Position numbers and translations under genes: made by a program. Below are positions 56,928 to 57,047 of a stretch of 64,000 nucleotides of DNA, piece by piece. The stretch is from Escherichia coli O157:H7 (lineage in GTDB: Bacteria > Pseudomonadota > Gammaproteobacteria > Enterobacterales > Enterobacteriaceae). The notes under the pieces were generated by a model, which did no database searches, was not told the DNA's origin, and saw nothing but the letters and a program-made list of their open reading frames with translations. The stretch lies in assembly GCF_013167455.1 (NCBI RefSeq), contig NZ_CP038328.1. The stretch is one strand, 5' to 3'. Numbering within the stretch: the first letter of the stretch is position 1; the number at the start of each line of letters is the position of its first letter.

Positions 56928-57047
56928 ATGCCTGGCAGTTCCCTACTCTCGCATGGGGAGACCCCACACTACCATCGGCGCTACGGCGTTTCACTTCTGA
57001 GTTCGGCATGGGGTCAGGTGGGACCACCGCGCTAAGGCCGCCAGGCA
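56928..57047 (-). rRNA. rrf: 5S ribosomal RNA
   Basis: Full-length match by eye to E. coli 5S rRNA (reverse complement). Confidence 0.95.

What the first reader, a model, noticed from the sequence alone, without database searches (positions are those of the whole stretch)
56928..57047. 5S rRNA carries a G-to-U difference at about position 13 relative to the canonical E. coli sequence
The minus-strand 5S reads UGCCUGGCGGCCUUAGCGCGG, where I recall the canonical sequence as ...GGCCGUAGCG.... This is probably ordinary inter-operon or inter-strain microheterogeneity, but it is a concrete difference from the reference and could also be a read error.
Basis: partly seen in the sequence, partly recalled or inferred. 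Interest (0 to 1): 0.12.

Follow-up and report, generated by a model that had tools for sequence, protein, structure and literature searches.

The report
Common natural 5S rRNA allele (U13)
The single-base difference is real, but it is one of the standard 5S ribosomal RNA variants of E. coli: it is present in about three quarters of complete E. coli genomes and in 7 of the 8 5S genes of an O157:H7 reference genome, so it is ordinary.

Summary
Confirmed and ordinary. Window 56928-57047 (minus strand) is a full 120-nt 5S rRNA gene (Rfam RF00001, 93.2 bits). It is the last gene of the rrnE operon (16S, tRNA-Glu, 23S, 5S, then yjaB and metA). It reads UGCCUGGCGGCCUUAGCG, with U at position 13 (window base 57035).

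- **K-12 comparison.** All eight K-12 MG1655 5S genes have G13.
- **Not a read error.** An 801-bp stretch around the gene is 100% identical in all 30 listed complete genomes, which are O157:H7 or O157-type.
- **Not an operon oddity.** In EDL933, 7 of 8 5S genes carry C12-U13. Only the second 5S gene of rrnD does not.
- **Common in the species.** The first 60 nt with U13 occur exactly in 4115 of 5463 E. coli records. The G13 form occurs in 4292.
- **Common in relatives.** U13 also occurs in Enterobacter, Pantoea, Erwinia, Kosakonia and other genera.
- **Structurally neutral in these tests.** The base lies in the unpaired three-way junction (loop A), where the family consensus is A. All four alleles have the same energy on the accepted fold.

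The best explanation is a neutral or nearly neutral polymorphism spread across operons by gene conversion. It is already known and of very low interest.

The parts
56928..57047 (-). 5S rRNA gene (rrfE), 120 nt, C12-U13 allele
   Evidence: Rfam RF00001 at 93.2 bits. Identical to EDL933 rrfA, B, C, D, E, G and H. Aligned to K-12 rrfE.
57035..57036 (-). Positions 13 (57035, U) and 12 (57036, C) of the 5S RNA. These are the only differences from K-12 rrfE (A12, G13). They lie in unpaired loop A.
   Evidence: The Rfam structure line marks model positions 10-13 as an unpaired multiloop, and the consensus at this position is A.
57048..57139 (-). 23S-5S spacer
   Evidence: Lies between the Rfam LSU and 5S matches.
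57140..60044 (-). 23S rRNA gene (rrlE)
   Evidence: Rfam RF02541 at 2871 bits. EDL933 annotation.
60241..60313 (-). Spacer tRNA, annotated tRNA-Glu in the EDL933 and K-12 rrnE operons
   Evidence: Rfam RF00005. Annotation.
60399..61940 (-). 16S rRNA gene (rrsE)
   Evidence: Rfam RF00177 at 1576 bits.
56891..56916 (.). Palindromic G+C-rich hairpin 12 nt downstream of the 5S gene, followed by a T run on the operon (minus) strand. Probably the operon terminator.
   Evidence: The scan tabulated it on the + strand: 11-pair stem, 6 GC pairs, loop of 4. The minus-strand sequence shows the T run. It differs from the hairpin after K-12 rrfE. Function is inferred.

Best explanation
This is an ordinary, functional 5S rRNA gene, the rrfE gene of an O157:H7-type E. 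coli. It carries the C12-U13 allele, one of three common E. coli variants of the dinucleotide at positions 12-13 (CG, AG, CU). The variable base sits in the unpaired three-way junction (loop A), so changing it breaks no base pair. In this lineage the allele has been copied into 7 of the 8 5S genes by gene conversion between rRNA operons (concerted evolution). The distal second 5S gene of rrnD has kept its own sequence. What is shown: the sequence, the allele distribution and the unpaired position. What is inferred: functional neutrality, and gene conversion as the way the allele spread.
For: - **Real 5S gene in the expected place.** Rfam RF00001 at 93.2 bits over the full model. The gene order is 16S, tRNA, 23S, 5S, with purH upstream and yjaB and metA downstream, as in rrnE.
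- **Allele table.** K-12 has C12G13 in rrfC, D, G and H, and A12G13 in rrfA, B, E and F. EDL933 has C12U13 in rrfA, B, C, D, E, G and H, and A12G13 in rrfF.
- **Species frequency of exact 60-nt 5' segments.** U13 occurs in 4115 of 5463 records, C12G13 in 4292, and A12G13 with C3 in 1414. Records with U13 include E. coli B derivatives, Nissle 1917, NU14, 55989, O111 and O121.
- **Other genera.** U13 with otherwise identical positions 2-35 occurs in Enterobacter, Klebsiella sp., Pantoea, Erwinia, Kosakonia, Yokenella, Phytobacter, Trabulsiella and Escherichia sp. Of 125 matches, 122 were U12U13 and 3 were C12U13.
- **Structure.** The position is an unpaired multiloop column whose family consensus is A. 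The nearest-neighbour energy on the Rfam-derived fold is -23.5 kcal/mol for all four alleles.
- **Literature.** K-12 5S genes vary at 4 positions (PMC6312700), which agrees. rRNA gene conversion in E. coli is more than 100 times as frequent as point mutation, and it either removes or propagates variants (PMC8022953).
Against: Nothing contradicts this. Neutrality of G13 versus U13 was not tested. The energy calculation ignores tertiary and protein contacts of loop A. The frequency figures count records with at least one exact copy, not copies per genome. The cross-species scan was truncated, so it is not a census.
Confidence: 0.96

Rival explanations
1. Sequencing or assembly error at one base of a repeated rRNA gene.
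For: rRNA repeats are places where assemblies can collapse or mix copies.
Against: The 801 bp around the gene are 100% identical in all 30 listed independent complete genomes, which are O157:H7 or O157-type, and 308 records are at least 99% identical. The same allele is in 7 of 8 copies in EDL933 and occurs exactly in 4115 E. coli records.
Confidence: 0.005
2. Operon-specific microheterogeneity: only rrnE carries U13 while the other operons keep G13, giving a mixed 5S pool as in K-12.
For: K-12 does have inter-operon 5S differences at positions 3, 12, 92 and 117 (PMC6312700).
Against: In EDL933 all seven first 5S genes of the operons are identical and carry U13. Only rrfF differs. The window matches EDL933 with 4 mismatches in 8382 bp, none of them in the 5S gene.
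Confidence: 0.01
3. A functionally specialised 5S variant: U13 changes loop A contacts and tunes ribosome assembly or translation, and selection rather than neutral conversion fixed it in 7 of 8 copies.
For: rRNA sequence variants can affect phenotype in E. coli. This has been shown for the 16S rrsH variant (PMC6312700) and for operon-specific ribosome activity (PMC11046459). Near-fixation in O157:H7 is compatible with selection.
Against: There is no evidence specific to 5S position 13. G, U and A (the family consensus) all occur at this unpaired position. Both alleles are found in most E. coli genomes. Gene conversion alone predicts homogenisation.
Confidence: 0.03

Closest known systems
E. 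coli K-12 rrfC/rrfD/rrfG/rrfH (5S rRNA, C12-G13 allele)
   Same: 119 of 120 nt are identical, with the same length, same fold and same place in the operon.
   Different: G13 instead of U13.
E. coli K-12 rrfE (the orthologous gene; A12-G13 allele, also in rrfB)
   Same: Same operon and same upstream context (purH, rrsE, gltV, rrlE). 118 of 120 nt are identical.
   Different: A12-G13 versus C12-U13. The downstream region also differs: K-12 has another terminator hairpin and the yjaA gene, which the window lacks.
E. coli O157:H7 EDL933 rrf genes (NZ_CP008957.1)
   Same: Seven of the eight copies, rrfE among them, are 120/120 identical to the window's gene.
   Different: None in the 5S gene. The window differs from EDL933 at 4 bases in the ITS and 5' 23S region.
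5S rRNA of Enterobacter, Pantoea, Erwinia and Kosakonia
   Same: U at position 13, with positions 2-35 otherwise identical. The commonest form differs from the window only by C12U (63 of the 125 matches).
   Different: Mostly U12-U13 rather than C12-U13.
G/U heterogeneity at position 13 of E. coli MRE600 5S RNA (Brownlee, Sanger and Barrell 1967-68)
   Same: As I recall it (own knowledge, not verified here), the first published 5S RNA sequence already reported two forms differing G/U at position 13. That would be this very polymorphism.
   Different: I could not check it. The library search found no text on it, and the MRE600 record NZ_CP014197.1 is not in the genome collection.

Membership tests
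Bacterial 5S rRNA (Rfam RF00001) | Covariance-model score above the curated gathering threshold over the full model | tested here: met
   93.2 bits against a gathering score of 38, model positions 1-120 of 120, E = 7.5e-19.
Bacterial 5S rRNA (Rfam RF00001) | Located at the 3' end of an rRNA operon, downstream of the 23S gene on the same strand | tested here: met
   16S 60399-61940, tRNA 60241-60313, 23S 57140-60044 and 5S 56928-57047 are all on the minus strand.
Bacterial 5S rRNA (Rfam RF00001) | Three-helix-junction fold, with helix I formed by the 5' and 3' ends | tested here: met
   The Rfam alignment places all helices. Helix I (C3-G117 to G10-C110) is fully canonical, and the variant lies in the unpaired junction columns. 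Free MFE folding does not recover helices II and III, which is a limit of the method.
Standard E. coli rrf allele | Exact identity to 5S genes annotated in many independent complete E. coli genomes | tested here: met
   120/120 identity to 7 EDL933 rrf genes. The 60-nt 5' part is exact in 4115 of 5463 records.
rrnE operon | Flanked by purH upstream and yjaB-metA downstream, with a single tRNA-Glu in the 16S-23S spacer | tested here: met
   The window region is 100% identical to EDL933 5109219-5110019, where the order is purD, purH, 16S, tRNA-Glu, 23S, 5S, yjaB, metA. K-12 has the same order plus yjaA.
Functional (expressed, ribosome-incorporated) 5S rRNA | The RNA is transcribed, processed and present in 50S subunits | not testable with these tools
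   Inferred only. It is the major 5S allele of EDL933, in 7 of 8 genes, so ribosomes of this lineage must use it.

The most novel reading that the evidence does not exclude
The G13/U13 (and A12/C12) loop A alleles might not be equivalent. Their different mixes in different E. coli lineages (all G13 in K-12, almost all U13 in O157:H7) would then subtly alter 50S assembly or central-protuberance function, and the homogenisation would reflect selection.
Probability: 0.03. Interest if true: 0.3.

Novelty: already known. Interest (0 to 1): 0.03.

Why it matters
It matters very little. The result mainly shows that K-12 is not "the" E. coli reference for 5S rRNA. K-12 lacks an allele that about 75% of complete E. 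coli genome records carry and that dominates in O157:H7. It is also a tidy example of concerted evolution: seven copies are homogenised and the distal rrfF copy has escaped. For a genome scan it should be filed as normal variation.

Tried and rejected
- **Free-energy folding of the four alleles.** RNAfold does not recover the accepted helices II and III for any allele, and it gives the G13 form a spurious small hairpin. I treated it as uninformative and used the Rfam alignment and an energy evaluation on that fold instead.
- **Literature on the historical G/U13 heterogeneity.** I found no searchable text that mentions it. The MRE600 genome paper discusses only 16S rRNA. The statement about Brownlee and colleagues therefore stays a recollection.
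- **Direct check of the MRE600 genome.** Accession NZ_CP014197.1 is not in the collection.
- **Cross-species pattern scan.** It shows that U13 is present in many genera but gives no frequencies, and it did not reach most Escherichia, Shigella or Salmonella genomes.
- **Read error and rrnE-only variation.** Both were considered and rejected.

Full report
**Observation.** The minus strand of window 57047..56928 reads TGCCTGGCGGCCTTAGCGCGGTGGTCCC...CTGCCAGGCAT. Rfam's 5S model (RF00001) matches 56930-57045 over its full length at 93.2 bits, against a gathering score of 38. The 120-nt limits coincide with those of the annotated K-12 rrfE gene when the two are aligned.

**Context.** The gene closes an rRNA operon that lies entirely on the minus strand:
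- 16S at 60399-61940
- one spacer tRNA at 60241-60313
- 23S at 57140-60044
- 5S at 56928-57047

An 801-bp query across the 23S end, the 5S gene and the downstream flank is 100% identical in all 30 listed complete genomes, which are O157:H7 or O157-type and include EDL933. The features under the match are 23S, rrf and yjaB. In EDL933 the gene order is purD, purH, 16S, tRNA-Glu, 23S, 5S, yjaB, metA. K-12 has the same order at rrnE, plus yjaA. The gene is therefore rrfE of an O157:H7-type strain. Over the 8382 bp that overlap my EDL933 fetch, the window has 4 mismatches, all in the spacer and 5' 23S region and none in the 5S gene.

**Comparison of all copies.** I extracted all eight 5S genes of K-12 MG1655 and all eight of EDL933 and compared them.

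| Genome | Positions 12-13 | Genes | Other differences |
|---|---|---|---|
| K-12 | A12-G13 | rrfA, rrfB, rrfE, rrfF | rrfA has U92; rrfF has U3 and A117 |
| EDL933 | C12-U13, 120/120 identical to the window | rrfA, B, C, D, E, G, H | none |
| EDL933 | A12-G13 | rrfF | U3, A117 and A87 |

The four variable K-12 positions (3, 12, 92, 117) agree with the published count of four variable 5S positions in K-12 (PMC6312700). Three things follow:
1. The recalled reference is exact, but it is only one of the K-12 alleles.
2. Against its true ortholog, K-12 rrfE, the window differs at two adjacent bases, A12C and G13U.
3. In the O157:H7 lineage U13 is not a peculiarity of one operon. It is the major 5S sequence of the cell.

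**Frequency in the species.** I searched 60-nt queries covering positions 1-60 against 5426 complete E. coli genomes. At that length one mismatch drops identity to 98.3%, so the top identity band counts exact matches only.

| Allele | Records with at least one exact copy (of 5463) |
|---|---|
| C12-U13 | 4115 |
| C12-G13 | 4292 |
| A12-G13 with C3 | 1414 |

Records with U13 include E. coli B derivatives, Nissle 1917, NU14, NC101, 55989, O111:H8 and O121:H19. K-12 strains lack U13. O157:H7 strains lack an exact C12-G13 copy. U13 is thus about as standard as G13. These figures count records with at least one copy, not copies per genome.

**Other genera.** I scanned one genome per species for GCCTGGCGGCNTTAGCGCGGTGGTCCCACCTGAC. 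The stretches come from Enterobacter, Klebsiella sp., Lelliottia, Kosakonia, Silvania, Yokenella, Phytobacter, Trabulsiella, Pantoea, Erwinia, Winslowiella and Escherichia sp. MOD1-EC7003. Of 125 matches, 122 are U12-U13 and 3 are C12-U13. The commonest sequence differs from the window's 5S only by C12U. U at position 13 is therefore widespread in Enterobacterales. The scan is not a census.

**Structure.** In the Rfam alignment, E. coli positions 12-15 fall on model positions 10-13. These are marked as unpaired multiloop columns between helix I and helix II, which is loop A, the three-way junction. The family consensus there is C-A-U-A, so the consensus base at position 13 is A, and neither G nor U matches it. 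When I evaluated the CU, CG, AG and UU alleles on the Rfam-derived fold, each gave -23.5 kcal/mol. Unconstrained MFE folding does not reproduce the accepted fold, so I set it aside. Tertiary and protein contacts of loop A cannot be assessed with these tools.

**Mechanism.**
- **Shown:** the gene is a complete 5S gene in a complete operon, and its allele is the majority 5S allele of EDL933.
- **Inferred:** it is expressed and used in ribosomes, since the lineage has almost no other 5S gene.
- **Inferred:** the presence of one allele in seven dispersed operons is the expected outcome of RecA-dependent gene conversion between rRNA operons. In E. coli this was measured at 3.6e-4 per genome per generation, more than 100 times the point-mutation input, so new variants are either erased or propagated to all copies (PMC8022953).
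- **Consistent detail:** the distal second 5S gene of rrnD, which lies beyond a tRNA-Thr gene, keeps its own signature in both K-12 and EDL933. That signature includes the compensatory U3-A117 pair in helix I.

**Rivals.**
- A read error is excluded by identity across many independent assemblies and across seven paralogous copies.
- rrnE-only heterogeneity is excluded for EDL933.
- A functionally specialised 5S variant cannot be formally excluded, because rRNA variants can matter (PMC6312700; PMC11046459). Nothing here points to it, though. The position is unpaired, it tolerates G, U and A across taxa, and both alleles are present in most E. coli genomes.

**What is already known.** From my own memory, not verified here, the original E. 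coli 5S RNA sequence of Brownlee, Sanger and Barrell (1967-68) already reported G/U heterogeneity at position 13 in strain MRE600. My attempts to confirm this in the paper library and in an MRE600 genome record failed. Independently of that recollection, the allele is annotated as rrf in thousands of RefSeq genomes, so it is already known.

**Verdict.** The interpretation of ordinary microheterogeneity is supported, and the variation is between strains rather than between operons. The read-error alternative is refuted. Novelty: already known. Interest: about 0.03.

Noticed in passing
window 56835-56927, compared with L001 (K-12) 47161-47700: The yjaA gene that lies between rrfE and yjaB in K-12 is absent. 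Homology to K-12 stops 6 nt after the 5S 3' end and resumes at the 3' end of yjaB. From my own knowledge, yjaA is one of the presence/absence markers used in Clermont phylogroup typing, so its absence fits an O157:H7-type strain.
   Followed up: partly
window 56891-56916 and 56852-56871: The hairpin after the 5S gene (AAAGGCCATCC-TGAC-GGATGGCCTTT followed by a T run) differs from the one after K-12 rrfE (AAAAACCCCGGTCC...GGCCGGGGTTTTTT). From memory it resembles the rrnB T2 terminator. A second, REP-like hairpin follows it.
   Followed up: partly
L004 424-543 (K-12 rrfF) and L011 46056-46175 (EDL933 rrfF): The second 5S gene of rrnD keeps a compensatory U3-A117 pair in helix I (C3-G117 in all other copies) and A12-G13 in both strains. 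The EDL933 copy also has A87. This copy seems to escape the homogenisation seen in the other seven.
   Followed up: partly
window about 60115, 60114, 59908, 59903: These are the only 4 mismatches between the window and EDL933 in 8382 bp. They cluster in the 16S-23S spacer (the StyR-44 region) and the 5' end of 23S. A small gene-conversion tract or an inter-strain rRNA operon difference would look like this.
   Followed up: no
window 30871-31067 (+): A lysine riboswitch at 99.5 bits, presumably the lysC leader.
   Followed up: no
window 19213-19283, 28884-28955, 51976-52053 (all -); 28669-28818 (+); 60052-60160 (-): Three matches to naRNA4 (REP-derived nucleoid-associated RNA), one to STnc430, and one to StyR-44 just upstream of the 23S gene. 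All are above their Rfam gathering scores.
   Followed up: no
L056 268-851 (Erwinia rhapontici); L025 13234-13507 (Pantoea sp. Mb-10); L078 100-308 (Enterobacter ludwigii): Two or three 5S 5' ends lie 175-275 bp apart in one locus. These look like tandem 5S genes at the end of an operon, like rrfD-rrfF in E. coli.
   Followed up: no
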